A stretch of 32,000 nt of DNA. It comes from Candidatus Saccharimonadota bacterium (GTDB taxonomy: Bacteria; Patescibacteriota; Gracilibacteria; BD1-5; UBA6164). The number at the start of each line of letters is the position of its first letter. Positions within the stretch are counted from its first letter, which is position 1. Below the pieces are notes generated by a model that worked only from the letters and a program-made list of their open reading frames with translations, had not been told where the DNA came from and ran no database searches. The position numbers were made by a program, and so were the translations under genes. The DNA is taken from contig CP042461.1 in NCBI GenBank assembly GCA_004563595.2, forward strand, positions 60,001 to 92,000, given 5' to 3'. Shown here one piece after another: positions 1 to 19,821 of this stretch.

Positions 1-422
1 AGAGTAGATGTTTCAAATTCCTTTAATATAAGTTCAGTTGTATCATATTGTAATAGTGCAAGCTTAACTTTTGATGCAAGGTAGTTTACTATCTTGAGTG
101 TTTTTTTTGCTTTGAGAGAATTATTTCATGATAGTTTTCATTGAGCGAGAGAAAGTCTCTTTGACAACTTTTGTAATTTTTTCTCACTTTTGCTGAGAGT
201 AGCAATTACTGTATCTATACTTTTTATATATTTCTCTCCACGAGATATACTTTTTAAAGCAGTTCTTGATATATCCACTTTATTAATGAGAATAGTTTCT
301 TCTAAAGAAGTCTCTGCATAGGCAAAAGAACCACTTTGAAAAATAAAAGCTATTAACAATAATGAAGTGAAACACTCCTTAATAATCTTCATAAAATAAG
401 AGTTTAAAAAATAATAACCCAT
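1..422 (-). CDS. hypothetical secreted coiled-coil protein (3' end runs off the left edge)
   Basis: Track ORF 138..422(-) stops at a TGA. With TGA=Gly the frame stays open to position 1. N-terminus MKIIKECFTSLLLIAFIFQSGSFAYA/ETS resembles a Sec signal peptide, so the ATG at 392 may be the true start. The rest is K/L/S-rich and heptad-like. No family recognised. Confidence 0.6.
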
Positions 423-457
423 CTATTTTATTTTTTGTTGACCATTAATCAAATAAA

Positions 458-1810
458 TTATTTAGTTAATGAGTAATGCTTTCAAATATATGCTCATATT
501 ATTAAAAACAGTAAATAACTTGTTGCTGCTTCTTCAAATGCGTGAGTGAAATTTGCCATGAAACATAAGCTCAAAAAAGCAGTGAGGAGTCATATAGAAA
601 AATAGGTGGTTGTTTTTTGCATAATTTTATACAAAGCTATACTAATGAATATGAGTAAGCCAAGAAAGAAAAAGAGTCATAAAAAAGATTGTTCTAAAAG
701 TATCTGTACATACCAGTTTTCGGGCAAGTACTTATATACTTCTATAGAGTTTATTGAACTCTTCCATCATACATCAGTTTCAAGTGGACCAATTTGAGTT
801 GCAGGACCACTTGTTCATACTCCACTTCCAATGGGGTTATATAAAAACTTTTTTACAGCAAGAGCAAGATTATCAAATCTATTTATGAGAGATCATAAAT
901 GAAGAAAAAGGCCTCTTTTTATAAACATAATGATAGTTGCAGAAACTGCTATGAGTATAGGAACTATTTTAAGCACCTTTTTTTGCTTGCTCGTGAGCTT
1001 TCACTTAAATATGAATTTATTCAGAAAGTAAAAGAATATAAATGCTCATATCATTAATCCCAACATAGATGTTTTTGAATATGAGAAAAAGACTGATGTG
1101 ACAACAAATAATGAAGGAATGGATATAAAGATACTTCTATATATATGATTTTTTACGGTATCTAATATATATCAAATATATAAAAAGAGGAATACAATAA
1201 GGAATACGGAAAACCTTATTGGTCAACCAAAAGAAGCTTGAAATCTATGATGTCATGAAACATTTTGAGAAAAACTAATACAAGAATTTGCATTATAGGT
1301 AGATACTTTATCTGAGTATCCAAAAAAATCTGAAACAAGAGCTATGTCTCCAAAAATATACCATGGAAGAAAAATAATTAAAATGAGTCATGTTGATGCA
1401 AATACACTTTTTAAAATGGTATCAATTGAATTTCTGATGCTGATAAGAGAAAAACCTGCAATGAGGGTAAAAATAAAAAATACATCATATTTAAACCCCA
1501 GAAGGTTATTTATCCCAACAGAAAAGAATGGAAAAAATATATAGAGGAGTGACGAAAATATAAACGCAACAGAGAATCATAATATATAGTTCCCTTGAAA
1601 TATCTTTCATATTTTAAAATGGTACCTTTTTAAAATACTATATGTTCAAATGAAAAGTAAAAAAATAACTATAAACTCTTTCCAGAATCTAATAATATCA
1701 GTATTGGCTCATAATTTACACTTTAAAATTGTAACAAATAATGCATGGAGGGGTAAAAAGAATGCAAAAAGTATGAGTAAAAGCTTCATAGGAATGTTTC
1801 AGAGTTTCAT
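458..1810 (-). CDS. O-antigen ligase / Wzy_C-family polytopic membrane protein (WaaL/PglL/PilO-like)
   Basis: 450-aa ORF under table 25 (length 1353 nt, TAA stop at 458-460), invisible in the standard track. About 10 hydrophobic segments. Family-like segments: FSYSKTSMLGLMIGAFIFFYF, then the loop LYNPIGSGVGTSGPATQIG...PENWYVQILLEQSFLGLFFFLGLL, which resembles the Wzy_C signature (HN.YLQ.L.E.G..G). Confidence 0.7.
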
Positions 1811-1819
1811 AAATTATAG

Positions 1820-2938
1820 TTATTTAATTAAGTTTTTTAATCATTTTTCAAATATATCTTCAGAAAATTTTTCTGCCTGTTTTCTGCATTTTTCAGGGCT
1901 ATATACTTTGTTTCAGTTATTTATATCAAATTTGAGGAAATTTTCTATAAAATCAGATCAATCCTTTTCAGAGAAAAATTCTCATGTGATTCACTCAGAT
2001 ACTGTTTCAAGTAAGCCTCATCATCTGTATGCAAAGACTGGTTTCCCTGCAGCCATTACTTCTATGGGGACGATTCAGAAATCTTCTTCTCCAGGGAATA
2101 TGAGTCCCTTACTTGATTGAACCAGAGCAACAAGTTCATCTCAGTACTTTGCTCCTGCAAAGTCTATATTACTTATTTTTACTTTGTTTTCGAGATCCGT
2201 TTTATAATTTCCTGATCATACTACAAGGAGGTTGGTCTCAGGCATTTTATTAAATGCTTCTATTGCGATTTCTATTTTTTTGAATTCTGTGAGAGCTGAA
2301 ATTATTATATAGTAATTTTTATAATTGGTTTTTTGTTCCCTGAGAGATTGAAATCGTTTTACCTCAACGGGTGGGTATAAAATATGGGAATCTTTTCTAT
2401 AATATTTTTGAATTCTTCATGCTGTATTCTCTGAATTGGCAATAATGGTGTCTACTCGATTACTTGCTATATAATCCCATTGCCTGAGTTTTAAGAATAA
2501 TTTATTCAAAATAAATCATTTGATTCATGAATCCCATCAGATGTCTTTTTTATATTCATTAGTCCAGTCCCACATATATCTTGCAGGAGAATGATAGTAG
2601 GCAATAAATTGTGTTTCTGGCTTGGTAATCGCACCATGTGCAAATCATGATGAACTTGCTATAACAAGATCATATTTTGAGAAATCAAGACTTTCAACTG
2701 AGCTTGCCATAAAGGGAAGGCAAAACCTTTGATTTTTAAAGAGTTTATATATCTTTTGAGTTTTCAGGTCATAGACTTGTGGGTGGATACGTTCTTTGGG
2801 AAAACTCTCTCAGAGTTTCGTCTCATCATAAATCAAAGTAAATAAATCAGCCTTAGGAAAAATCTGTAGGAGTTTTTCCACTACCTTTTCAGCTCCACCA
2901 AACTTAATCAACATTTCATGTAATATAGCTATTTTCAC
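1820..2938 (-). CDS. family 4 glycosyltransferase (GT4, glycosyl transferase group 1)
   Basis: 372 aa from a GTG start at 2938 (an in-frame TAA lies upstream at 2999-3001). N-terminus (M)KIAILHEMLIKFGGAEKVV is typical of GT4. C-terminal EX7E-type region reads [36 protein letters not shown], with several of these Gly encoded by TGA. TAA stop at 1820-1822, 9 nt before the next gene. Confidence 0.85.
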
Positions 2939-3091
2939 GTCTTTTTTGGTTAAATATTTTACTTTTTTTCAAAGAAAATCTATACAATAAAGGAGATTTT
3001 ATACTTTTTCTCCTTTTAAATATAATTAATTTTTGAAAAAAATGAATTTTATGTTAAAATTTGTACAATTAAATACTAATCTGTCAAAAAA

Positions 3092-3496
3092 GTGATAAAA
3101 AAAATAGCCTTTATTTTTATACTCATAATCTGATTATTAAGTTTTGCAAATGTTTGATTTGCCAAGTGTGAATGAGATGAATGTAAAATAGATTCAATAA
3201 AATTTCAGATTGATGTAAATGACATTACTCCATGACTAGAAATAGAAGAAGGTGATAATGTTGAACAGACAATAAATAGAACGCTTTGAACTATCATACA
3301 AAAGCTTATGATTGCTCTTTGATCATTGTCATTACTTATAATGACAATATGAGGATGATATATGATAATGTATCATGGACAGGATGAGTTATTATCTAAA
3401 TGAAAATCAATATTTTTATCTTGAATTACAGCACTTGTAGTTGCCTTAAGTTCATATTATATGGTAGCATTTTTGAGATATATTTTATATTCATAA
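3092..3496 (+). CDS. VirB2/TrbC-like (T4SS-type) pilin paralog 1
   Basis: 134 aa, GTG start. (M)IKKIAFIFILIIGLLSFANVGFA signal peptide, then two hydrophobic helices separated by a short charged loop: LIMTIGGGYMIMYHGQDELLSKGKSIFLSGITALVVAL. TAA at 3494-3496. Confidence 0.7.
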
Positions 3497-3508
3497 CAGT
3501 AGAAAAAT

Positions 3509-3904
3509 ATGATTAAAAGTTTAGATAAGATTTCATATGCATTTTTATTTGCTTGTGTAAGTAGTTATGTACTCATATCAAAAGTTTTTGCTGCAGCTCC
3601 AACGGTAAATTGTATATGACTTCCTTGATGTGCTGATACGGATGTTGCTAACCCAATACCATCAGACATTAGTAAAAATATATGAACAACTTTGGTGACA
3701 AATATAATATCTCAAATGATTCAGTATGTTGCTGTAGTAGCTGTAATATCATTAATGTTAAGTTGAGTAATGTATCTTGTTTCAGGATGAGAGGAAGAAA
3801 AAACAAAAAGAGCAAAGAGCTGGATTATGTGGTCACTTGTGTGAGTATTTATGTCTATCTTTGCTTACTGAATAGTGAAAATTGTTAATAATTTCTCAAT
3901 TTAA
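3509..3904 (+). CDS. VirB2/TrbC-like pilin paralog 2
   Basis: 131 aa. MIKSLDKISYAFLFACVSSYVLISKVFAAAP signal peptide. Core reads IISQMIQYVAVVAVISLMLSGVMYLVSGGEEEKTKRAKSWIMWSLVGVFMSIFAYGIV. Track ORF 3682..3888 is out of frame with this gene. Confidence 0.75.
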
Positions 3905-3924
3905 TTTATTATTTATATACTGTT

Positions 3925-4314
3925 ATGTTAAAAACATCTTTTTATTCACTTATATGAATATTCTCAAGTACTTCTTTTGTATTTGCTGAGGCTACGAAGG
4001 ATTCCATTTTAAATGGTATTATACCAACCTGAAACAATGTGAATAAAGTTGTTGCAGATATTGATTCTACAGCAGATGGACTGACTGTACTTGATAATAT
4101 CTTTGCCTGAGCAAAAGATTCCATTTTTTGACTTATGATGATACTTTCAATAGGGGTATTTTTATTCTTATGAGTACGTCTGGTAGTAGCAAGAGGAAAT
4201 CCAGAAGAATTTAAAAAAGCTATGATGAGTATGGTATATGCTGTGGCAGGTCTTTTTGTCGTAAGTGCAGCTTGGGCAGCAGTGAAATTGGTATCTGGAC
4301 TTAATATATCTTAA
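3925..4314 (+). CDS. VirB2/TrbC-like pilin paralog 3
   Basis: 129 aa. MLKTSFYSLIGIFSSTSFVFAEA signal peptide. Core reads IFGLMMILSIGVFLFLGVRLVVARGNPEEFKKAMMSMVYAVAGLFVVSAAWAAV. The track only shows antisense ORFs here. Confidence 0.75.
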
Positions 4315-4322
4315 AAAAAAAT

Positions 4323-4733
4323 ATGAAAAATTTTTTCCTGAGTATTCTTTCAATATTAGCAATAAGTGTATCATTCTATGGATGATTATTTGCAGCTTGA
4401 TGTGATTTTGATCCAACAGCATCTTCATCAGCAAAAAAAGCATTAGAGGAATGTTTAAATGGAACAAGTGTAGTTCCCGTAGATAATGTTGATCTTGCAA
4501 CTGGATTCCAAACGGTTATTGTTTGATGGGTAAATAATATAGCTATTCTTTTAGGTATCCTTGCTGTATGATCAATAGTATTTGGATCACTTCTTTTAAC
4601 TTTGAGTACATGAGAAGATGAAAAAATCAAAAAAGCAAAAGACGTTATTAAATGGTGAATTCTAGGGTTTTTAGGAGTGGTTACAGCTTCTACTATTGTA
4701 ACTATTGTGGTTAAGATTATGTATTCTATTTAA
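4323..4733 (+). CDS. VirB2/TrbC-like pilin paralog 4
   Basis: 136 aa. MKNFFLSILSILAISVSFYGGLFAAGC may be a lipobox-like signal. Core reads IVGWVNNIAILLGILAVGSIVFGSLLLTLSTGEDEKIKKAKDVIKWGILGFLGVVTASTIV. Confidence 0.75.
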
Positions 4734-4739
4734 TAAAAT

Positions 4740-5615
4740 ATGAAAAAGACTCTTGTATTCTTGTTTTTGACATTCTCTTTTACATGTATAATTTTTGTTT
4801 TTAAGAATTATCTTCTTTTAGATGCACAAACACAAATTGAAGAACAATACTTAGATCCTACCGTTATTGTTGAACCCCAAGAAAATGATGATATGTTGAA
4901 TACTGCAAGCTGAGAGACTATAAAAGAGGTTGCATGAAAACAAGATAGAGAAAAAGAGCTGATTAAAACACATCTATTATCAGCTTCAAAAGTACACTTT
5001 TTTTATCTTCCCGTTTCCTTTCAAAAAGCATCAGAACAATATAGTTGATTATTAGGAGTGTTCTTAAATAATAGTTCTATTCAGGATAAAATTAAAAAAC
5101 TCAAAATCGAAATGCACGAAGATTTACTAGATGTAAGGTGAAAAATGAAAAATAAAACAGTAAAATTGTTTTGAGTTTTACTTATGAAAGAGGAAGAATT
5201 TATATCGGTATCAATTCATGAATTTGCTCATTATGTAGATTTGTATTTCTTAGAAAAAAAAGTTCTTACAGATATTAGTAATTATTATTACAAGATTAGT
5301 TGGGATTCCACTAAAGTATTGAAGCCGGGTCAAAAACAAGCAGATTTTGTTTCAGGATATGCTATGACAAATAAATATGAGGACTTTGCAGAAAGCTTTA
5401 CGTATTATATATTACATAATAAAGATTTTTTCATAAAATCAGAAAAATCTTCTATCTTAAAAGAGAAGTATATTTTTTTCTGACGTTATATTTTTAGAAA
5501 TAAAGAATTTATATCGACTGATTTTTCGGCATGAGTTGACTTAAAGAGTTATTATCGGGATATCACAAAAATTGAAATAAATTTGAAAAAATTATTGCAA
5601 TTTTTAAAAAAATAA
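4740..5615 (+). CDS. membrane-anchored zincin-like metallopeptidase (HExxH...E)
   Basis: 291 aa. N-terminal anchor MKKTLVFLFLTFSFTCIIFVF. Zinc motif SIHEFAHYVD, plus downstream YEDFAESFTYY as a possible third ligand or gluzincin-like glutamate. In frame with track ORF 5184..5483. Starts 7 nt after pilin 4. Confidence 0.7.
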
Positions 5616-11904: not shown

Positions 11905-12585
11905 ATGTCAGCAAGAAAAATATTCATTTCGTTTATATTGTTAACTATGGTAACACCTACTTTTGCATATGAAGCAGTAGAATGTTCTAGTGATGCTGTA
12001 TATGCAGCAAACTCTTGTGGTCAATGTTTTGACGGAGGTAGTAAAGGTCAATGAGAATACGTATGATTATTAAGTGATGATTGGATTAATAATACTGAAA
12101 CAAAAAAATTATTATTCAAAGAACAACAAGAGTTTCCTCAAATGGTAAACTTAGCTTCAGATTCAGTAACTTGGTCTCAAGATCCATCAAATGAAGATTT
12201 CTGGGAATATACTCCAGAGTTTAATAACTTATTTTCAGCTGATGAAGGAGGTTATATCTTAGACGCTGGTCAAACAGTAACTTGGTTAAGATCAAAAGTA
12301 TGATATGCTTATAAAATAGATAAAAATACGGTTCCATTAGATGGAAATGTAGGTCTCCTTGTATTCCCAATTACTGTTCATTCAATTGGTGACGATGGTG
12401 ATATTGCAATAGATGATGAAGAATTAAATGAATGTGTTCTTTATAAATCAGGTGAACCTGGAGAAGTTACTACTTCACCAGAACCAAAAAAACTACCAGA
12501 CACAGGTCCAGCAGAGTTTATGCTACTTGCATTACTTGCAATGATCCTAGGACTTGGAATACTCAAAGTAAGAGCGAACTCTTAA
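11905..12585 (+). CDS. LPXTG-anchored surface protein (sortase substrate)
   Basis: 226 aa. Signal peptide MSARKIFISFILLTMVTPTFA/YEA. C-terminal sorting signal LPDTG (12493-12507), then hydrophobic PAEFMLLALLAMILGLGIL and the basic tail KVRANS. Confidence 0.8.
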
Positions 12586-12734: not shown

Positions 12735-15700
12735 ATGTTATTAAAAATATTTTTTAAACATATACGTATGTTATATATAGTAAAACAATATAAAGCTTTA
12801 TTAGGAGCACTATTAAGAAATAGACTTATAGGTGAGGATGGAGGATCATTTATACATGACTTAGATAATTTTCTTGATACTGATTCAAAAGAACCGAAAG
12901 ATTTTGCATCATTACAAAAAAAAGCTAAAACTCCTGAACAAAAAAAAGCGATTAATACTGCCCAAAAAAAAGTTGCTGAAGTGAGTAACACAAATAAAGA
13001 AGCAGTAGAGAAAGTTACAACAGAAGTAAAAGGTCAGAAAGCAAAATTGGACAAAGAAGTGACTCCATCTGCTTTTACGAACCTTGATCTTGCTACTGCT
13101 CAACAAACATTACAATATCTTAACGCTTTATCAAATACATCATTAAAAAATGGAGACGGGTGAGCAAAAGTTTCTCAGTTACAATATGCATTGTTAGGTC
13201 TTTGATATAACCTGTGACAATCATGAGAATTTAATAATTGAGCTGATGGTATTTATGGTTCAAAAGTAAAAGCAGCAGTAAGGGGAGTACAAACTGAATT
13301 AGAGTTAGACGTGACAGGAAGTTTTACGAGTACTACATTTGATAAATTAAAATCAGAACTTACTCTTGTTGTTGAATCTAAAAAATCAGAAAAAACAGTT
13401 GCTACTCAAAGTGAAGGTTCAGCTTATAAGGATCAACCTGAAGTTGTAAGCGCTCTCTCAGAGGCTGATATAGCTGCACATGAGGCTGAAATTGCAAAAC
13501 AAAGAGAGGCACTTATGAATGAAATTAATTCAGATCAGACTCAAGAGGTAAATACAGAACTTTATATCCCATATTCTAGGCCTACAAGGCAGAATAAAAT
13601 GTGAAAATGACTTGATTTAGCTGATAGAAATAGAGAAAAAGAAGTCACTTGAATTAAGAGAACAGAGCTTTTAGATCGTATGAATGTAGCATTACTACAT
13701 GATTTATTAAGAAGTGAAAATCTTGAAGAAATTTATAATGACGCATTTTCAAAAGTATCCATAAAAGAAATTACTGATGATGATGGAGTAATAACAAAAG
13801 TAGCAGAATATAATGGGATTTGAAAATTATCGAATTTTTCTGAAACTGCTAAGGTTTTAAAATCTGCATGATATGATGATGCTAAAGGGTTTTGGTGATT
13901 AGATGGTGAAGAAATGTGAGCACTTATGTTAACTATAAGAGATCAGATTAGGACTCAAAAAAATATTCCAACTATGTCTGCTGTAGGAAAAATGAAAATT
14001 CTTTTTGATTTTGATGGAGATACACATTTGGAAAGTGACTCAAAAGAAATTGATGGAATGAATTATGTATCAGAAAAACAAATTACACGTGATACTTTTA
14101 AATGAATCACATCAAATGGATACAATATATTGTTAGAAAACCTTGGTCTTCCAAATATTGAGACTGAAATGGCTCAAAACTTGTTTACTGCAAGAGAAAA
14201 ATTCCATAGAGAACTTGGTACTATGTTTGAAAGAGGATATAAATTAGGTGAACTACTTGTTGAAGGATGAGTACAACGTGCGACTGAAATGATGTATGGG
14301 AAAGAGAATGAAAAAGCGGAAGCGATTTCTAAAATTGTAGAAGAAAAGTTAATTCCTAGATTAGAGGCAGAAGCAGGGCAAGAATTAACTCCAGAAGAAA
14401 GAAAGCAAATAAAATTATTGGCTATTGGTGTTATGACATGAGGAGTGACATGAGTAGGCGCATCTTTTGATATCAAAGACTATGTAAAAGTAGTAGATAG
14501 TCTTCAAGTCGGACTCTTTAATGGTGTTCCATGAGTTGGTATATCAAAAAAGCTATGGGAAAAAAATGGTTTTGAGTTTACAGGATCAGTAGTAAATTTT
14601 TATATCCCAGTATTAACAGCTCAATATCACGATGAACCTTCATTAGAAAAAGTAAAACAAACATTTGAAGAAGAATTTGAAGGTGATTGGACTATCTCAC
14701 CGTCTATTTCTATAACAGTAGGGGCTTACCTTCCTTCAATAGCGTTTACTTATGAGAATAAAGATACATCAAAAGGTATTGATAAAAGAGTAGATAACAT
14801 GTGAGATGTATTAGATAAAATGTTTAAAGATATACAAGAATGAAAATCTTTTGATGATATCTCATATATTGAATCTAAATGAAAAGAAGAAAATAGTATT
14901 TATAATAAGATGAAAGATACATATGATACATATGGAGCATCTTTAACAGAAGAACAACAAGTGTTATTCATGAGAGACTTAAAACAAGGAGGTTTGAATT
15001 ATTATAAAATGGGTTTATATAATAATGCTTCAAAATCTAATTTTGATATCAACGCTTTCTGAATCTGAAGATGATTAGGAGATTTTAATCCACTTACATT
15101 TATTTATGTTGGTTGAGAAAATTTAAGTTTAGATTGGAAAAAAGTTATTCACTCAATTGATAGAGAAAGAGAAGTAACTACTACTCGTATTGCTTTGGAA
15201 AAAATCTGAGCAGAAGTAGTTGAATACAAAGGATTTAAAGTACTTGCTATACCAAATGGTTCAGAATATGCCATTTCATCGGATGAAAATATTATCCAAG
15301 CAGAGTACGATAAAGGAAACGATATGTTATATATCACGGGTGATATTAGAAACATTTCAGTTGCAGAGTATTCTATGGCACATTGAGCTCAAAAAACTAT
15401 TGTAGTTTGAAAATGAGTTACCAATGAAAAAGGAATGCTTCTTGATACAACTGAAAACTTAGTATCTATTGATTCAAATTTATGATTCAATATTGATTAT
15501 AGTGCAGAATCTTTAGAAAAAACTGAAATTGCAAGAGATCATTTATTTACCATTATTGACTCATGAACATTGAAAGATCCAAAAACTCCAGGTATGATGG
15601 CTCTTCAAAAAGCTATCTTCAATTATAAAAGAACATGAACTCCAACAATATCTGAATCATGGGATAAATTTATAAAAGTATTTAATGATCCTGAAATGAA

Positions 15701-16634
15701 GTCATATGCATCATGAGAGAAAGAAAATGCTCTGAAAGGTTTATTGCTATATATACAAAACACAGATATTACAAATGAAGATAAAGTTCTTATTCTTCAA
15801 TCAGTTTCATCAAACTTAATGAAGAAAAAAGCATTAAAAATAAAGGGGACAAAAGTTATGATTGAATGAGGAGAATCAACCTTAATGGAATATGATACAA
15901 ATAATAATAGGTCAGATTTCTTTGATCCAATATTTGAAAGAGAGTTATCTGATATTGCGGCAGATATTAAAGGTGCGAGAACTGAATATTTGAAGGCAAA
16001 TGGAGATAAAAGAGAATATACATTTACTTCAATAGCAGAATGAGATATTGCATTTACGGGAGTATTTTCAAAAAGATGAGACTGAGAGGATAATGTAAAT
16101 GGTTTAATGCCATATACATGAGTATATAAGGTTGCTTCATTTGAATGAGGAGTTGATATGGTGCCAATTGAAGGGAAATCAATAAATATTATTGATGCTC
16201 TTCCAACAGGATATTTAGAAAATGTAAAAACAATTTTAGAAGAAATTACATGACAAAGTTTTAGATCAGATAATGTTGATGATCCTTTTGAGAAAGTAAA
16301 AATTGCATTAAAAAGTAAGGATACTCCAATTAAATTTGAATATGACCTTTTCTTTGCTAAAATGTCAGAGTGTTTGAATGATGCTGTTATTATGAAAAAC
16401 CTTAAAATGACTGTAGGTGATAATAAAGTTACTCTCTGAGCATCTTCTACAAGTGAAGTCTATACTCCAGAGTACGCTGCACAAAAGTGGGCACTTTGAT
16501 TTACTGAAAATAAAAAAGATGATGGTAATGGTGATGATGACACAAGAACTCCTCCTCCTGGAGGAAATACAACTGAATGATGAGGGTGATCTGGGAATGT
16601 CTGAGGTGGTGAAGTTGGAGGAGGAGGTTTCTAA
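12735..16634 (+). CDS. giant hypothetical protein (1299 aa) with a PG_binding_1-like peptidoglycan-binding domain and a Gly-rich C-terminus
   Basis: Single open frame under table 25, checked codon by codon over long stretches. Track fragments 12735..13163 and 13311..13604 are in frame. nt 13164-13349 encode AKVSQLQYALLGLGYNLGQSGEFNNGADGIYGSKVKAAVRGVQTELELDVTGSFTSTTFDKL, matching the PG_binding_1 pattern (LQ..L..LGY..G..DG.[FY]G..T..AV..FQ....L..TG). The protein ends ...PPPGGNTTEGGGGSGNVGGGEVGGGGF. No signal peptide or clear TM segment. The rest is unrecognised. Confidence 0.75.
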
Positions 16635-16932: not shown

Positions 16933-19821
16933 ATGAAATATATTAAAACAGCTATTATAGCAATATTCTTATTTGTGTCACCTTCCCAGGTGGCCTTTTG
17001 AGCATGATGAATAGAAATGGAAAGTTGTTCTTCAGGTGTATATAGCGCTTTTTATCCAAGTTCTTGTTCAGTATGTTGATTTGGGACTCAAAGACTTTAC
17101 GAATGAGAAGATACAGATTTCTGGGACTTTTATAATAGTACAGATTCAAATGAAGAAATATTTGCATCATCAAGTAATGCAAGTGTTACCGATTTTTGAT
17201 GATATTTAAATGATGAAAGTCTTTCATGATTATGACTGAGATCAACTTGGACACCAGTTAACTTGAGCCATAATTCAGCAGTAATATTTTTCGTAGATAA
17301 CTTAAGGCTCACATCAAGACCACCTGATGTGAATACACCAGTATGAAGAATTGATTATTTTTTGAGGTGAGCTCCAGTAGTATCAAATTGAAATTTCTCA
17401 TTTACTTGAGAAAGAGGATATCGTGAATGAACGGAAAGCTTAGTGAATTGAGAGTATGTACTTGATGCGCCTAATTTTATAGTTGACCCTGATCCAGTAA
17501 GTCAAAAAAGTATAAATACATCGGATATATTTGAACATAATGAATGTTATGTTATGTTACCAGCTTGGTGTTGAGATGGGTTAGTTACAAATTGAGAAAC
17601 ATGTGATCCACTAGATCCAGCAACAAGTGCTTGATGTAACCCACTTACCTGCCAACCATTCCCTACATTTGTACCGTTTATGGCAGTAGATATTGTCGAT
17701 GACAATGCTGACGATTTAGATGGGGTACAATGAGATGATACTCAAACTGTAAATGTTGGTTCTGGATCAACTTTTAGAGTTACATTAACAAATGCTTGAA
17801 CAGACGCTTTAGAAAATATAACTCTCCTAGATATAGTAGCTCCAGAGTGTGCATGATCTGCAACTCTGACTGGTACAACGTTTACTTGACCATCTACATG
17901 GACAAATCTTTCAGCTACCTGAGTTATTAATGGATCTTTATTACCATTAATATGAAGCCTGAGTTATAATTGTAACTTGGATAATATATCAGTAGATATC
18001 ACAAATACGATAACTGCAGCTTGATTATGAGTGAATAGTAGTCTGATTACATGAGCACTTCCTGATACAACTCTCGTTGTTGCTTGAACTGGAAGCACGA
18101 ATTTATGTTGAAATGGAATTATCGAAACACCAGAAGTATGTGATTTTGCCGATCCAACACAAACAGCTTGGGGAACAAGTGGATGTACAGCCACCTGTCA
18201 ACCAGATAATGGATGAGGATGAGGTGGAACTTGACCACAATGTAGAGCTATAGATGCATGAACATATGATAGTACGACGAATATACGTAGTGGAATAGTA
18301 TGTACTTGAAATAGTGATGTAAATTCTATTAGACTTGATTGTTGAAATGGAACAAACCTATACGGGTCTGGATCAACGGCTACATTCTCTTGTGATTATA
18401 GTGGGAATGCAAATCCAGATGAGATTAAACCAATTTGTTATGTAGCATGAAGTACTTGATTAACAAATCCTAATTCATCTTCATGGTCAACTCGTCTTGC
18501 TTGTACACCAGGAAGACCAAATGGTGGCTGAGGAGGAGGTTGAGGCTGAGGAGGTTTTTCAAAAACATGTTGAGATGGAGTGGTTCAAAGACCAAATGAT
18601 TCTTGATTCAATGAACAATGTGATACTACTCAAACTTGGTGTAGTGCTACATGTAAAGCACTTGTAACAACACAACCTTTTGGAGGAGTAGTGAAAATGT
18701 TACCAGGGAATGATTATGTTATTATTGGAGATGGAATGAATCCATATGAGGCTCATACTTTGAGTTACCCATATATTGAAAATTTATCAGAAGACCCAAA
18801 TACGGATATAGCATTTGATGAAATTTGTGTATATAATACATCAGGGTCATCACTTTCAGGAGATGGAACTCAATGTGAACCTATGGGAGTAATCTATCCA
18901 TGAGAAAAAGCATATTTTGGAAGAACTCCAGATTATAGGTGAAATACTTCTGGTATAACATCTGGTAATATAGGAGAAAATGTTTTAAGGTATTCTGTTA
19001 AAAATGATGGAACAGACTATCCGGATGCATTCTTTTCAACGGAGTTAAAAGTAAGAGTTTCAAAACCTTCTATTGCAACGGTATGAGGATGAACGAGTTT
19101 CTTAAACAATACATCTGCAGTAAAAACTCAAGATATTGCAAAATGAGAACATAAAGATGCAAATAAGAACTTTGTATGAGCATGAGTTTGAGAAAATGGC
19201 TTGAGTTATACAAAAGATGTTTCAGACACTGCCTCAGTAAATAAAATATGAGAAGAATGAAGTGTATATAATAATACACTGAATGGATCAATAAATGATC
19301 TATGATCAAATTGATGAACCCGTACAGATATAAATGACTTCGATAATTATAATGGTATAGAAAATGTTTATATCTTAAAGAATTATAACTTTAAGATCGA
19401 ATCTGACCTATTCTCAAGCATCAATTGACCAAGAACATATGTTATAGAGAATTGAAACCTTATTATTTCTTCTGATATAACTTATTCAGATAATATAGCA
19501 TTTGTTGTAAAGTGATGAAATATTATTATAGATGAAGAAGTAAGAAGTATTAAAGGAGTCTATATCTCTATTCCAAAATGATCGAGGTGATGAAAGTTTA
19601 TATGACTATGAACAACAAATAATATATTAAAAGTAGAATGATCATTGTATTGAAATATAGAGAATCTTGTAAGCAAGAGAACCTATATAAATGAAAATGC
19701 AAGCTGACAAATTAGTGTATGAACAATTGTAAGTTTTGGTTCGAGTATCTTTAGGAAACCTGCACCACTTACTTGAAAATTTATATGAGAATATTTAGAA
19801 GCTGAAAAGATAGCAAAATAA
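16933..19821 (+). CDS. large secreted Cys-rich-repeat surface protein (adhesin-like, 962 aa)
   Basis: Signal peptide MKYIKTAIIAIFLFVSPSQVAFG. Three CxDG...E.CD repeats of the myxococcal Cys-rich / DUF4215 type: WCGDGLVTNGETCDPLD, LCGNGIIETPEVCDFAD and TCGDGVVQRPNDSGFNEQCD. A DUF11/CARDB-like stretch reads QTVNVGSGSTFRVTLTNAGTDALENITLLD. Poly-Gly linkers are present. Track ORF 18691..18903 is in frame. TAA at 19819-19821. Confidence 0.8.

What the first reader, a model, noticed from the sequence alone, without database searches (positions are those of the whole stretch)
1..3091. Divergent glycosylation module (GT4 + Wzy_C/O-antigen-ligase-family protein + secreted coiled-coil protein) next to the pilin array: candidate pilin O-glycosylation locus
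The minus-strand operon GT4 (2938-1820), Wzy_C-family membrane protein (1810-458) and secreted protein (422-<1) shares a 153-bp divergent intergenic region with pilin 1. Established precedent: the O-oligosaccharyltransferases that glycosylate pilins (Neisseria PglL, Pseudomonas PilO/TfpO) are Wzy_C/O-antigen-ligase-family proteins, and pilO sits directly beside pilA. CPR bacteria with Gram-positive-like envelopes have no lipid A core for a WaaL-type ligase to act on. A protein (pilin) acceptor is therefore an attractive alternative. In the signature loop the residue before NW is Glu (PENWYVQILLEQ), where many family members have His (HN.Y). That could mean a divergent mechanism.
Basis: inference. 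Interest (0 to 1): 0.65.

Follow-up and report, generated by a model that had tools for sequence, protein, structure and literature searches.

The report
Glu-type WaaL-fold enzyme beside pilin array
A sugar-transferase gene pair in a recoded Gracilibacteria genome is real and belongs to a large, undescribed Glu-for-His branch of the O-antigen-ligase superfamily, but its position next to pilin-like genes looks like inherited gene order and not evidence that it glycosylates pilins.

Summary
The gene calls are correct once UGA is read as Gly (table 25). GT4 lies at 2938-1820 and a 12-TM membrane protein at 1810-458. A secreted protein starts at about 392; it is really the N-terminus of an 881-aa protein. 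A 153-bp divergent spacer precedes four small "pilin" genes.

The membrane protein has no Pfam or NCBIfam hit itself. However, 31 of 54 close homologues hit Wzy_C, and its AlphaFold model best matches the O-antigen ligase WaaL (7TPG). It defines a clade of at least about 120 representative clusters.

Three points weaken the pilin-glycosylation reading:
- The "pilins" are VirB2-like type IV secretion pilins (PF18895), not the type IV pilus pilins that PglL/TfpO modify.
- No PglL_A or Wzy_C_2 domain is present.
- Pilin adjacency (27 of 38 informative genomes) matches RNase J adjacency in 26 of those 27 loci and is lost in 8 of 10 rearranged loci, where a PMT_2-type GT-C enzyme and a large secreted protein stay with the gene.

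Distant clade members sit beside a UDP-GlcNAc 2-epimerase and TagA/WecG.

The best reading is a surface-glycoconjugate polymerase or ligase module with an unresolved acceptor. Pilin glycosylation is not excluded (about 15%).

The parts
1..392 (-). N-terminus (signal peptide plus coiled-coil-like region) of an 881-aa secreted protein ('big881'). The likely start is the ATG at 392; an upstream ATG lies at 422. The rest of the gene is beyond the window's left edge.
   Evidence: The ORF is. The full length comes from the source contig (L002 11419-14064). No Pfam domain was found. Homologues follow the Wzy_C-like/GT-C genes in 15 of 46 orthologous loci.
458..1810 (-). 450-aa, 12-TM, WaaL-fold (GT-C_B) membrane enzyme of the Wzy_C/O-antigen-ligase superfamily, Glu-type clade. 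It carries 18 UGA=Gly codons. The motif P363-E364-N365-W366 opens TM10. Residues conserved on the outer face are R189, K246, H304, R311, E364, Q369, E373, H423 and E426.
   Evidence: There is no direct Pfam or NCBIfam hit. 31 of 54 homologues hit PF04932. The AF2 model has pLDDT 81.6 and pTM 0.86. Foldseek's top hit is WaaL 7tpg_B (prob 1.0, TM 0.53/0.58), followed by FtsW.
1820..2938 (-). 372-aa GT4-family (GT-B fold) glycosyltransferase with a GTG start, 9 bp upstream of the Wzy_C-like gene. It is presumably cytoplasmic and nucleotide-sugar dependent.
   Evidence: Glycos_transf_1 2.7e-20, Glyco_trans_1_4 2e-15, Glyco_transf_4 1.3e-9. NCBIfam gives only weak, non-specific matches. An orthologue lies next to the Wzy_C-like gene in 33 of 46 loci.
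2939..3091 (.). 153-bp AT-rich divergent intergenic region. It contains a short inverted repeat (AAAGGAGA...TCTCCTTT, about 2989-3016) and two + strand promoter-like matches (2998-3026, 3033-3060).
   Evidence: The sequence is. Promoter-like matches in the region are no more frequent than in shuffles (41 against 37.8 +/- 5.8), so they are not evidence of function.
3092..3496 (+). Pilin-like protein 1 (134 aa): signal peptide, about 40-aa exposed region with a Cys pair, and a C-terminal two-helix hairpin. This is the weakest family match of the four.
   Evidence: PF18895 E=0.021, below threshold. It scores 120 bits on the array HMM.
3509..3904 (+). VirB2-like T4SS pilin 2 (131 aa)
   Evidence: PF18895 1.4e-7, 31.9 bits against a gathering score of 26.6. 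NF045849 9.8e-5.
3925..4314 (+). VirB2-like T4SS pilin 3 (129 aa)
   Evidence: PF18895 5e-9, 36.6 bits. NF045849 5.5e-5.
4323..4733 (+). VirB2-like T4SS pilin 4 (136 aa). Its exposed region contains PTASSSAKKA.
   Evidence: PF18895 2.4e-10, 40.8 bits. NF045849 1.5e-8.
4740..5615 (+). 291-aa secreted or membrane-anchored HExxH zinc-metallopeptidase-like protein. It is the last gene of the pilin operon and a conserved partner of the array.
   Evidence: Peptidase_Mx1 5.1e-7. TIGR04549 2.7e-8. It lies within 6 kb of the Wzy_C-like gene in 27 of 46 orthologous loci, always between the pilins and RNase J.

Best explanation
The minus-strand genes form a cell-surface glycoconjugate assembly module. 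It is not a dedicated pilin-glycosylation locus.

Proposed mechanism (inferred from family knowledge):
- The cytoplasmic GT4 enzyme extends a polyprenyl-(pyro)phosphate-linked sugar or oligosaccharide.
- After flipping, the 12-TM WaaL-fold enzyme acts at the outer face of the membrane. It either polymerises the lipid-linked units or transfers them en bloc to an acceptor.
- Its active site is formed by residues on extracytoplasmic loops. R189 (loop 3), K/R246 (loop 4) and the H304/R311 pair (loop 5) would hold the pyrophosphate.
- E364, which occupies the position of the catalytic His of WaaL, PglL and PglS, would supply acid/base chemistry, possibly together with H423 and E426.

The acceptor is unresolved. 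The most parsimonious candidate is a cell-wall-type or lipid-anchored glycopolymer. This is because more distant members of the same Glu-type clade are encoded next to a UDP-GlcNAc 2-epimerase and a TagA/WecG ManNAc-transferase. In close relatives the genes that move with it are a PMT_2-type GT-C enzyme and a large secreted protein, not pilins.

What is shown: gene structure, genetic code, GT4 identity, WaaL fold, the Glu-type clade, and the synteny statistics. What is inferred: lipid-linked donor, topology, residue roles, and polymerase versus ligase.
For: - Code and genes.
- GT4.
- Superfamily: 31 of 54 homologues hit Wzy_C. The AF2 model has pTM 0.86 with 12 TM helices and a 68-residue loop between TM9 and TM10. 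WaaL 7tpg_B is the best structural match, followed by the SEDS protein FtsW.
- Motif register with WaaL.
- Glu-type clade: 119 of 122 full-length top representatives in an exhaustive search carry [P/T/S]-E-[N/S]-W-[Y/F].
- Clade-wide conservation: R189 100%, R/K246 99%, E364 99%, H423 98%, plus a reciprocal H304/R311 versus R304/H311 swap.
- Distant members: Epimerase_2 in 14 of 29 loci, WecG/TagA in 13 of 29, pilins in 0 of 29.
- Rearranged orthologous loci keep the PMT_2-like p560 and the big881-like protein but lose pilins in 8 of 10.
- Literature: PMC12800693 gives roles for the Arg residues (pyrophosphate binding), the His (proposed base; H324A is inactive) and a downstream Glu in WaaL, PglS and PglL.
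- An LPDTG sortase-type protein in the window fits a monoderm-type wall to which polymers could be attached.
Against: - No initiating phosphoglycosyltransferase, flippase (Wzx), chain-length regulator or LCP ligase is seen within the window or within 10 kb to its left. The pathway is therefore incomplete locally.
- The epimerase/TagA context belongs to homologues that are only 22-27% identical and may be functionally diverged paralogues.
- In the window genome the PMT_2-like partner is absent within +/-10 kb.
- The pilin array is still the immediate divergent neighbour in about 70% of species-level relatives. 2 of 10 rearranged loci again have pilins within 5 kb, which may exceed chance if arrays are roughly one per genome.
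- Polymerase and ligase cannot be told apart with the data available.
Confidence: 0.5

Rival explanations
1. The Wzy_C-like enzyme is an O-oligosaccharyltransferase that moves a GT4-built lipid-linked glycan onto Ser/Thr of the neighbouring pilins. Here that would mean the exposed ~40-residue N-terminal regions of VirB2-like T4SS pilins.
For: - The divergent adjacency with a 153-bp spacer is real.
- Pilins lie within 4 kb upstream in 27 of 38 informative orthologous loci. The adjacency persists where GT4 is missing (L016, L023, L028).
- Two rearranged loci (L031, L040) have genuine pilins 3-4 kb downstream.
- The exposed pilin regions contain Ser/Thr (median 18%), and pilin 4 has PTASSSA.
- Wzy_C-family O-OTases exist (PglL, PglS, TfpO; PMC12800693).
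Against: - The precedents act on type IV pilus pilins, whereas these are PF18895 T4SS pilins. No type IV pilus pilin is in the window.
- No PglL_A or Wzy_C_2 domain in 54 members.
- The His that is essential in PglS/PglL is replaced by Glu.
- Pilin adjacency matches RNase J adjacency in 26 of 27 loci (the 27th is too short to test) and is lost in 8 of 10 rearranged loci.
- No pilins occur near 29 distant clade members.
- Ser/Thr enrichment is modest.
Confidence: 0.15
2. A general protein O-glycosylation system for Sec-exported surface proteins, such as the adjacent 881-aa secreted protein, the neighbouring giant protein of more than 4,000 aa, and possibly the pilins. The WaaL-fold enzyme would be the en-bloc O-OTase. 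In relatives the PMT_2-type GT-C enzyme would add single sugars from polyprenyl-phosphate donors.
For: - The genes that travel with the Wzy_C-like gene are a PMT_2-family GT-C enzyme (3 of 6 orthologues above the gathering threshold) and a large secreted protein.
- The locus is flanked by a giant surface-type protein in many genomes.
- From my own knowledge, not tested here: Wzy_C-type O-OTases for S-layer proteins are reported in monoderms (WsaB/WsfB of Geobacillus and Paenibacillus).
Against: - No O-OTase-specific domain.
- The catalytic His is absent.
- The PMT_2-like gene is missing from the window genome within +/-10 kb.
- There is no evidence that any of these proteins is glycosylated.
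- Distant homologues sit with cell-wall-polymer genes.
Confidence: 0.2
3. The protein has lost glycosyltransferase activity because the catalytic His is gone. It would then serve a non-catalytic or different role, such as a scaffold or a lipid-linked-sugar binder.
For: - His-to-Ala at the equivalent site inactivates PglS (PMC12800693).
- The window protein itself falls below all HMM thresholds.
Against: - Glu at this site is 99% conserved across at least 117 divergent representatives. So are R189, R/K246, H423 and Q369, all on the predicted outer face. That is the signature of a maintained active site.
- Glu can act as a general base.
- The gene stays operon-linked to glycosyltransferases.
Confidence: 0.08

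Closest known systems
WaaL O-antigen ligase (Cupriavidus metallidurans 7TPG/7TPJ; E. coli K-12 WaaL)
   Same: It is the best structural match (Foldseek prob 1.0, TM 0.53/0.58). Both have 12 TM helices with a large outer loop between TM9 and TM10. The motif x-N-x-Y-[LV]-x4-E-x4-G opens TM10 in the same register as WaaL's H-N-x9-G-xx-G. Basic residues sit on outer loops where WaaL binds Und-PP.
   Different: Sequence similarity is undetectable: the profile against PDB gives 0 hits and hhalign gives probability 0.18. Glu replaces the proposed catalytic His throughout the clade. The host is a Patescibacterium with a sortase-type LPDTG protein and no LPS genes in view, so lipid A-core is an implausible acceptor.
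PglL / PglS / TfpO (PilO) O-oligosaccharyltransferases
   Same: They share the Wzy_C/GT-C_B superfamily. Both are encoded next to genes for filament subunits. A conserved Glu in the last outer loop (E426) may correspond to PglL E404 / PglS E379 (PMC12800693); this is an inference.
   Different: There is no PglL_A or Wzy_C_2 domain. The essential His is replaced by Glu. The neighbouring subunits are VirB2-like T4SS pilins and not type IV pilus pilins. The adjacency does not follow the gene when the locus rearranges.
Wzy-type repeat-unit polymerases of Wzx/Wzy pathways (including polymerases of ManNAc-containing wall polymers and ECA-type clusters with WecB/WecG)
   Same: It is a polytopic membrane enzyme acting on lipid-PP-linked glycans. 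Distant clade members are encoded directly after a UDP-GlcNAc 2-epimerase and near a WecG/TagA transferase. Wzy enzymes do not depend on the ligase His (my own knowledge).
   Different: No Wzx or Wzz is visible nearby. TIGR04370 (repeat-unit polymerase) matches 1 of 54 members at E=0.1 only. No RX10G-type motifs were found by inspection.
Patescibacterial VirB2-like pilin arrays (PMC12102498)
   Same: Four tandem, divergent PF18895 genes fit the described arrays of 2-11 pilin genes with low mutual identity.
   Different: That study reports no glycosylation genes beside the arrays. Here the array sits in a conserved block RNase J - HExxH peptidase - pilins, divergent from GT4 - WaaL-fold enzyme, and away from any VirB4 in the window.

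Membership tests
Wzy_C / O-antigen-ligase superfamily (PF04932; GT-C_B fold) | Significant match to the PF04932 profile | tested here: inconclusive
   The window protein has no hit at E<=0.1, or at E<=1 when scanned as alignment member 1. 31 of 54 homologues at 44-63% identity do hit (best 6.4e-13). A distant clade member scores 1.7e-6 but falls below the gathering score (28.3 against 31.7).
Wzy_C / O-antigen-ligase superfamily (PF04932; GT-C_B fold) | Polytopic WaaL-like fold with a large extracytoplasmic loop before TM10 | tested here: met
   The AF2 model has pLDDT 81.6 and pTM 0.86, with 12 helices and a loop at 298-365. Foldseek's top hit is WaaL 7tpg_B (prob 1.0, TM 0.53/0.58, E 1.6e-3), followed by FtsW.
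Wzy_C / O-antigen-ligase superfamily (PF04932; GT-C_B fold) | Signature motif H-[NSQ]-x9-G-xx-[GTY] at the start of TM10 | tested here: not met
   The register is conserved (E364-N-W-Y-V-Q-I-L-L-E-Q-x-x-x-G), but His is replaced by Glu in the window protein and in 116 of 117 distant representatives.
WaaL (functional O-antigen ligase) | Lipid A-core acceptor / LPS core genes in the genome | not testable with these tools
   Only about 42 kb of the genome was visible, and it holds no LPS genes. An LPDTG sortase-type protein suggests a monoderm wall. A whole-genome inventory is needed.
PglL-type O-oligosaccharyltransferases | PglL_A (PF15864) and/or Wzy_C_2 (PF11846) domain accompanying Wzy_C | tested here: not met
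   0 of 54 family members hit either model at E<=1. No NCBIfam named model hits.
PglL/PglS/TfpO O-oligosaccharyltransferases | Catalytic His (PglS H324, PglL H349) | tested here: not met
   Glu364 occupies the motif position. The role of the His is taken from PMC12800693.
TfpO/PilO-type pilin glycosylation loci | Gene encoded directly beside a type IV pilus major pilin gene (class-III signal peptide) | tested here: not met
   No G-F-T-L-x-E type prepilin motif occurs in any frame of the window, and only 4 sporadic cases occur in about 80 related loci. The neighbours are PF18895.
PglL/PglS/TfpO O-oligosaccharyltransferases | Demonstrated glycan on the protein acceptor | not testable with these tools
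   This requires mass spectrometry or a heterologous glycosylation assay.
Wzy repeat-unit polymerases | Match to polymerase models / co-location with Wzx flippase and a chain-length regulator | tested here: not met
   TIGR04370 matches 1 of 54 members at E=0.1. No Wzx- or Wzz-like genes lie in the window or within 10 kb to its left. Absence elsewhere in the genome was not tested.
T4SS_pilin (PF18895, VirB2-like) - neighbouring genes | Profile match above the gathering score plus signal peptide and C-terminal two-helix hairpin | tested here: met
   Pilins 2-4 score 31.9, 36.6 and 40.8 bits against 26.6. Pilin 1 scores only 15.4 bits but has the same architecture.
GT4 glycosyltransferases | Glyco_transf_4 N-domain plus Glycos_transf_1 C-domain with the E-x7-E-type region | tested here: met
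   PF13439 1.3e-9 and PF00534 2.7e-20. UGA-encoded Gly residues fall on the conserved FG / GGxxE positions.

The most novel reading that the evidence does not exclude
The Glu-type WaaL-fold enzyme is an O-oligosaccharyltransferase with a Glu-based catalytic mechanism. Working with GT4 (and, in relatives, a PMT_2-type GT-C enzyme), it glycosylates the exposed N-terminal regions of the VirB2-like pilins of the patescibacterial T4SS-like apparatus. This would be the first glycosylated type IV secretion pilin. It would also add a sugar coat to the structure thought to mediate epibiont-host contact.
Probability: 0.13. Interest if true: 0.75.

Novelty: new variant of a known kind. Interest (0 to 1): 0.42.

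Why it matters
Patescibacteria such as Gracilibacteria live attached to other cells. Their surface chemistry is almost unknown, because most of their envelope proteins escape annotation.

This work shows that a widespread patescibacterial enzyme belongs structurally to the O-antigen-ligase/SEDS-like GT-C_B class. The clade has 916 representative clusters at E<=1e-3 and at least about 120 with the motif verified. It has systematically replaced the histidine regarded as catalytic in WaaL, PglL and PglS with glutamate, and it keeps a distinct set of invariant outer-face residues (R189, R/K246, H423).

That gives a concrete, mutable active-site hypothesis for a new branch of lipid-linked-glycan transferases in monoderm-type ultra-small bacteria.

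It also serves as a caution. Conserved adjacency to pilin genes within one class can be inherited gene order, because it matches adjacency to RNase J in all but one locus.

If the minority reading were true, it would reveal glycosylation of type IV secretion pilins, which has no precedent that I know of.

Tried and rejected
1. Table-11 ORF listing was useless because of UGA recoding, so I replaced it with my own table-25 caller.
2. Direct Pfam and NCBIfam scans of the 450-aa protein gave nothing.
3. A profile of 54 homologues against PDB sequences gave 0 hits. hhalign against a single E. coli WaaL sequence gave probability 0.18. Only fold comparison linked the protein to WaaL.
4. NCBIfam scans of 54 members looking for named PglL, TfpO, Wzy or WaaL models gave no meaningful hit.
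I used the database's table-4 version (18 Gly read as Trp) with the alignment instead.
6. My iterated pilin HMM picked up false positives, namely a small secreted soluble protein downstream of the big881-like gene. This at first suggested that pilins follow the gene in rearranged loci. Inspection and a hairpin filter reversed that impression.
7. The promoter and terminator scan of the divergent region was not above shuffled expectation.
8. I searched for type IV pilus pilins near the PilC-linked rearranged loci and found only sporadic cases.
9. Literature searches for Gracilibacteria or Patescibacteria together with O-antigen ligase or pilin glycosylation found nothing relevant.
10. I did not attempt a phylogeny against curated WaaL, Wzy and PglL/TfpO clades. 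Reference sequences other than E. coli WaaL could not be retrieved with the tools, and sequence similarity to them is below detection.


Full report
GENETIC CODE AND GENE STRUCTURE

With the standard bacterial code the first 8 kb of the window break into short ORFs. Reading UGA as sense raises the total in ORFs of at least 100 aa from 872 to 12,269 residues. UGA falls on invariant glycines: S13 MARIAGV, PyrH KISGEAL and GGGTGNP, TrmD CGHYEGID, and the GT4 FG/GGxxE positions. The code is therefore table 25, typical of Gracilibacteria/Absconditabacteria, and all close database relatives come from Gracilibacteria MAGs.

- GT4 at 2938-1820, with a GTG start.
- A 450-aa membrane protein at 1810-458.
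- A secreted protein starting at 422 or 392 and leaving the window.
- A 153-bp spacer at 2939-3091.
- Four ORFs of about 130 aa at 3092-4733 on the + strand, followed by a 291-aa HExxH peptidase-like gene at 4740-5615.

The source contig (493 kb, JGI 3300030037) shows that the "secreted coiled-coil protein" is the N-terminus of an 881-aa secreted protein. That protein is followed by a convergent giant gene of more than 4,161 aa.

WHAT THE GENES ARE

GT4 is unambiguous (Glycos_transf_1 2.7e-20, Glyco_transf_4 1.3e-9) but has no specific subfamily.

The 450-aa protein has no Pfam or NCBIfam hit at all. It belongs to a tight family of Gracilibacteria proteins of about 440-480 aa at 44-63% identity. 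Of 54 aligned members, 31 hit PF04932 Wzy_C (best 6.4e-13). None hits PglL_A or Wzy_C_2, and none hits a named NCBIfam model.

A profile of the family finds nothing among PDB sequences. An AlphaFold2 model built on the alignment is confident (pLDDT 81.6, pTM 0.86). It shows 12 TM helices and a 68-residue loop between TM9 and TM10. Its best structural match is the O-antigen ligase WaaL (7tpg_B; prob 1.0, TM 0.53/0.58), followed by the SEDS polymerase FtsW. This is the GT-C_B fold class, as named in PMC12800693. Membership of the O-antigen-ligase superfamily is therefore supported at family and fold level, not by the sequence alone.

The four small proteins are not type IV pilus pilins. Pilins 2-4 pass the gathering threshold of PF18895, "type IV secretion system pilin" (31.9-40.8 bits against 26.6). 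They also match the Mycoplasma ICE pilin-like model NF045849. Pilin 1 has the same architecture but only E=0.021. Each has a signal peptide, an exposed region of about 40 residues and a C-terminal two-helix hairpin. Arrays of 2-11 such VirB2-like genes are already documented across Patescibacteria (PMC12102498). No class-III (prepilin) signal peptide occurs in any frame of the window.

THE GLU-FOR-HIS OBSERVATION

E. coli WaaL (HNEIIEAGSLKGLMG) and Cupriavidus WaaL (HNDIVEAASTTGIPG) carry the classic H-N-x9-G-xx-G motif. The window family reads P-E364-N-W-Y-V-Q-I-L-L-E-Q-x-x-x-G in the same register. More distant homologues read E-N-W-Y-L-Q-I-G-V-E-L-G-x-x-G.

The loci had been found with an LPENW pattern, so I repeated the test without that bias. 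An exhaustive profile search of 1.84 billion representatives found 916 clusters at E<=1e-3 and 362 at E<=1e-10. Among 122 full-length top hits, 119 show [P/T/S]-E-[N/S]-W-[Y/F].

Across 117 distant representatives the following are conserved:
- R189 (100%), R/K246 (99%), E364 (99%), H423 (98%), Q369 (97%), E45 (92%).
- A P-x-G-x-G-x-G-xx-G-P-A stretch at 326-337.
- Positions 304 and 311 show a reciprocal swap: H/R in the window's orthologues and R/H in distant members.

By the positive-inside rule applied to the model's helices, all of these residues sit on outer loops (inference). PMC12800693 states three relevant points. The corresponding His is the proposed catalytic base of WaaL and PglS, and PglS H324A is inactive. 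Arginines hold the Und-PP pyrophosphate. A later Glu (PglL E404 / PglS E379) also matters. The Glu-type clade therefore looks like a maintained active site with altered chemistry, not a dead enzyme.

SYNTENY

I fetched 78 loci from species-representative genomes. I called ORFs with the appropriate code and annotated them with HMMs built from the window's genes.

The canonical order in Gracilibacteria is:
L34 - RnpA - YidC ... PyrH - lipoprotein - RNase J - HExxH peptidase - pilin x2-4 <-> GT4 - WaaL-fold enzyme - ~560-aa membrane protein - big881-like secreted protein - giant protein.
An independent check with database gene calls agrees.

The ~560-aa protein is a PMT_2-type GT-C enzyme: 3 of 6 further orthologues score above the gathering threshold. 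It is absent within 10 kb in the window genome.

My iterated pilin HMM produced false positives. After adding a hairpin filter, the counts changed:
- 27 of 38 orthologous loci with at least 4 kb of upstream sequence have pilins within 4 kb.
- 26 of those 27 also have RNase J upstream. The 27th, L035, is too short to reach it. RNase J is also upstream in L049, where my ORF calls missed the pilins.
- In 10 loci where the gene lies outside that block, genuine pilins are nearby in only 2 (L031 and L040). The PMT_2-like gene and the big881-like gene remain attached in 5 of them. The database's own annotation of one such locus confirms this, giving T2SSF - Wzy_C - 566 - 663 and no T4SS_pilin within 10 kb.

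In 29 loci with distant clade members (22-27% identity; Peregrinibacteria, Peribacteria and a few Saccharibacteria) the neighbours are a UDP-GlcNAc 2-epimerase (14 of 29) and a WecG/TagA transferase (13 of 29). No pilins are present.

ACCEPTOR MOTIFS

The exposed pilin regions are enriched 1.7x in Thr, 1.3x in Ser and 3.9x in Cys, usually as a pair. The median Ser+Thr content is 18%. Glycosylation sites are possible, but nothing singles them out.

INTERPRETATION

The best-supported reading is a surface-glycoconjugate assembly module. A cytoplasmic GT4 builds a lipid-linked glycan. A Glu-type WaaL-fold enzyme polymerises it or transfers it at the outer face. The acceptor is unresolved.

The cell-wall-polymer reading gains from the epimerase/TagA context of deeper relatives. 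The protein-glycosylation reading gains from the PMT_2 enzyme and the secreted-protein partners in close relatives.

The specific pilin-glycosylation idea loses its main supports:
- The precedent concerns a different pilin class.
- The O-OTase-specific domains and the catalytic His are absent.
- The adjacency behaves like inherited gene order.

It is not refuted, because the array is still the immediate divergent neighbour in most species and two rearranged loci regain pilins.

NOVELTY

PGAP already labels several homologues "O-antigen ligase family protein", and the pilin arrays are published. I could not find three things described in the searchable literature: the size and coherence of the Glu-type clade, its conserved residue set, and its two alternative gene contexts. 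I rate it a new variant of a known kind, of moderate interest.

Noticed in passing
window 11905-12585 (+): A 226-aa secreted protein ends in KKLPDTGPAEFMLLALLAMILGLGILKVRANS. This is an LPxTG-type sortase sorting signal (motif, hydrophobic stretch, basic tail), which implies a Gram-positive-like wall. It has no Pfam hit.
   Followed up: partly
window 4740-5615 (+): An HExxH zinc-metallopeptidase-like gene (Peptidase_Mx1 5.1e-7) always follows the pilin array, between it and RNase J. It lies within 6 kb of the Wzy_C-like gene in 27 of 46 orthologous loci. It is a candidate pilin-processing or pilin-associated protease.
   Followed up: partly
window 12735-16634 and 16933-19821 (+): Two large secreted proteins of 1,299 and 962 aa. 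The first ends in a Gly-rich tail (GGGGSGNVGGGEVGGGGF). The second has poly-Gly tracts and repeated Cys-rich 'CGDG...ETCD'-like segments. The 962-aa protein has no Pfam hit; the 1,299-aa protein was not scanned.
   Followed up: partly
L002 11419-14064 (continuation of window 392-1 beyond the left edge): The 881-aa secreted protein contains 'KARDSVRVTDVLHLISAIEQSYQDNGEYP' in its C-terminal third. From memory this resembles the start of the globular domain of GspG/type IV pilin-like proteins common in CPR. Pfam found nothing at E<=0.01.
   Followed up: no
window 1810-458, residues 304 and 311; broad alignment: There is a reciprocal swap of His and Arg. Close orthologues have H304/R311, and 87% of distant clade members have R304/H311. 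This suggests that the two positions are neighbours in the active site.
   Followed up: partly
window 2989-3016: A short inverted repeat, AAAGGAGA-(12 nt)-TCTCCTTT, lies in the middle of the 153-bp divergent spacer. Its function is unknown (operator or attenuator-like?).
   Followed up: no
P0001 versus window 1810-458: The public protein collection holds this gene translated with UGA=Trp, so 18 Gly residues are read as Trp. Mis-translated entries like this probably lower HMM sensitivity for recoded lineages.
   Followed up: yes
L042 4094-6763; P0124 (882 aa): Some relatives encode proteins of about 880-890 aa in which the WaaL-fold domain is the C-terminal half (profile match at residues 466-874). 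This is a fusion with an unidentified N-terminal module.
   Followed up: no
L029, L030, L037, L056 (and L084 8773-9894): In one sub-lineage the GT4 gene upstream of the Wzy_C-like gene is replaced by a lone PilC/GspF (T2SSF, 2.8e-48) type IV pilus platform gene. No type IV pilin gene is adjacent.
   Followed up: partly
L029/L030/L036/L039, downstream of the big881-like gene: A conserved small (116-129 aa) secreted, non-membrane helical protein follows the big881-like gene. My iterated pilin HMM mis-scored it as a pilin.
   Followed up: partly
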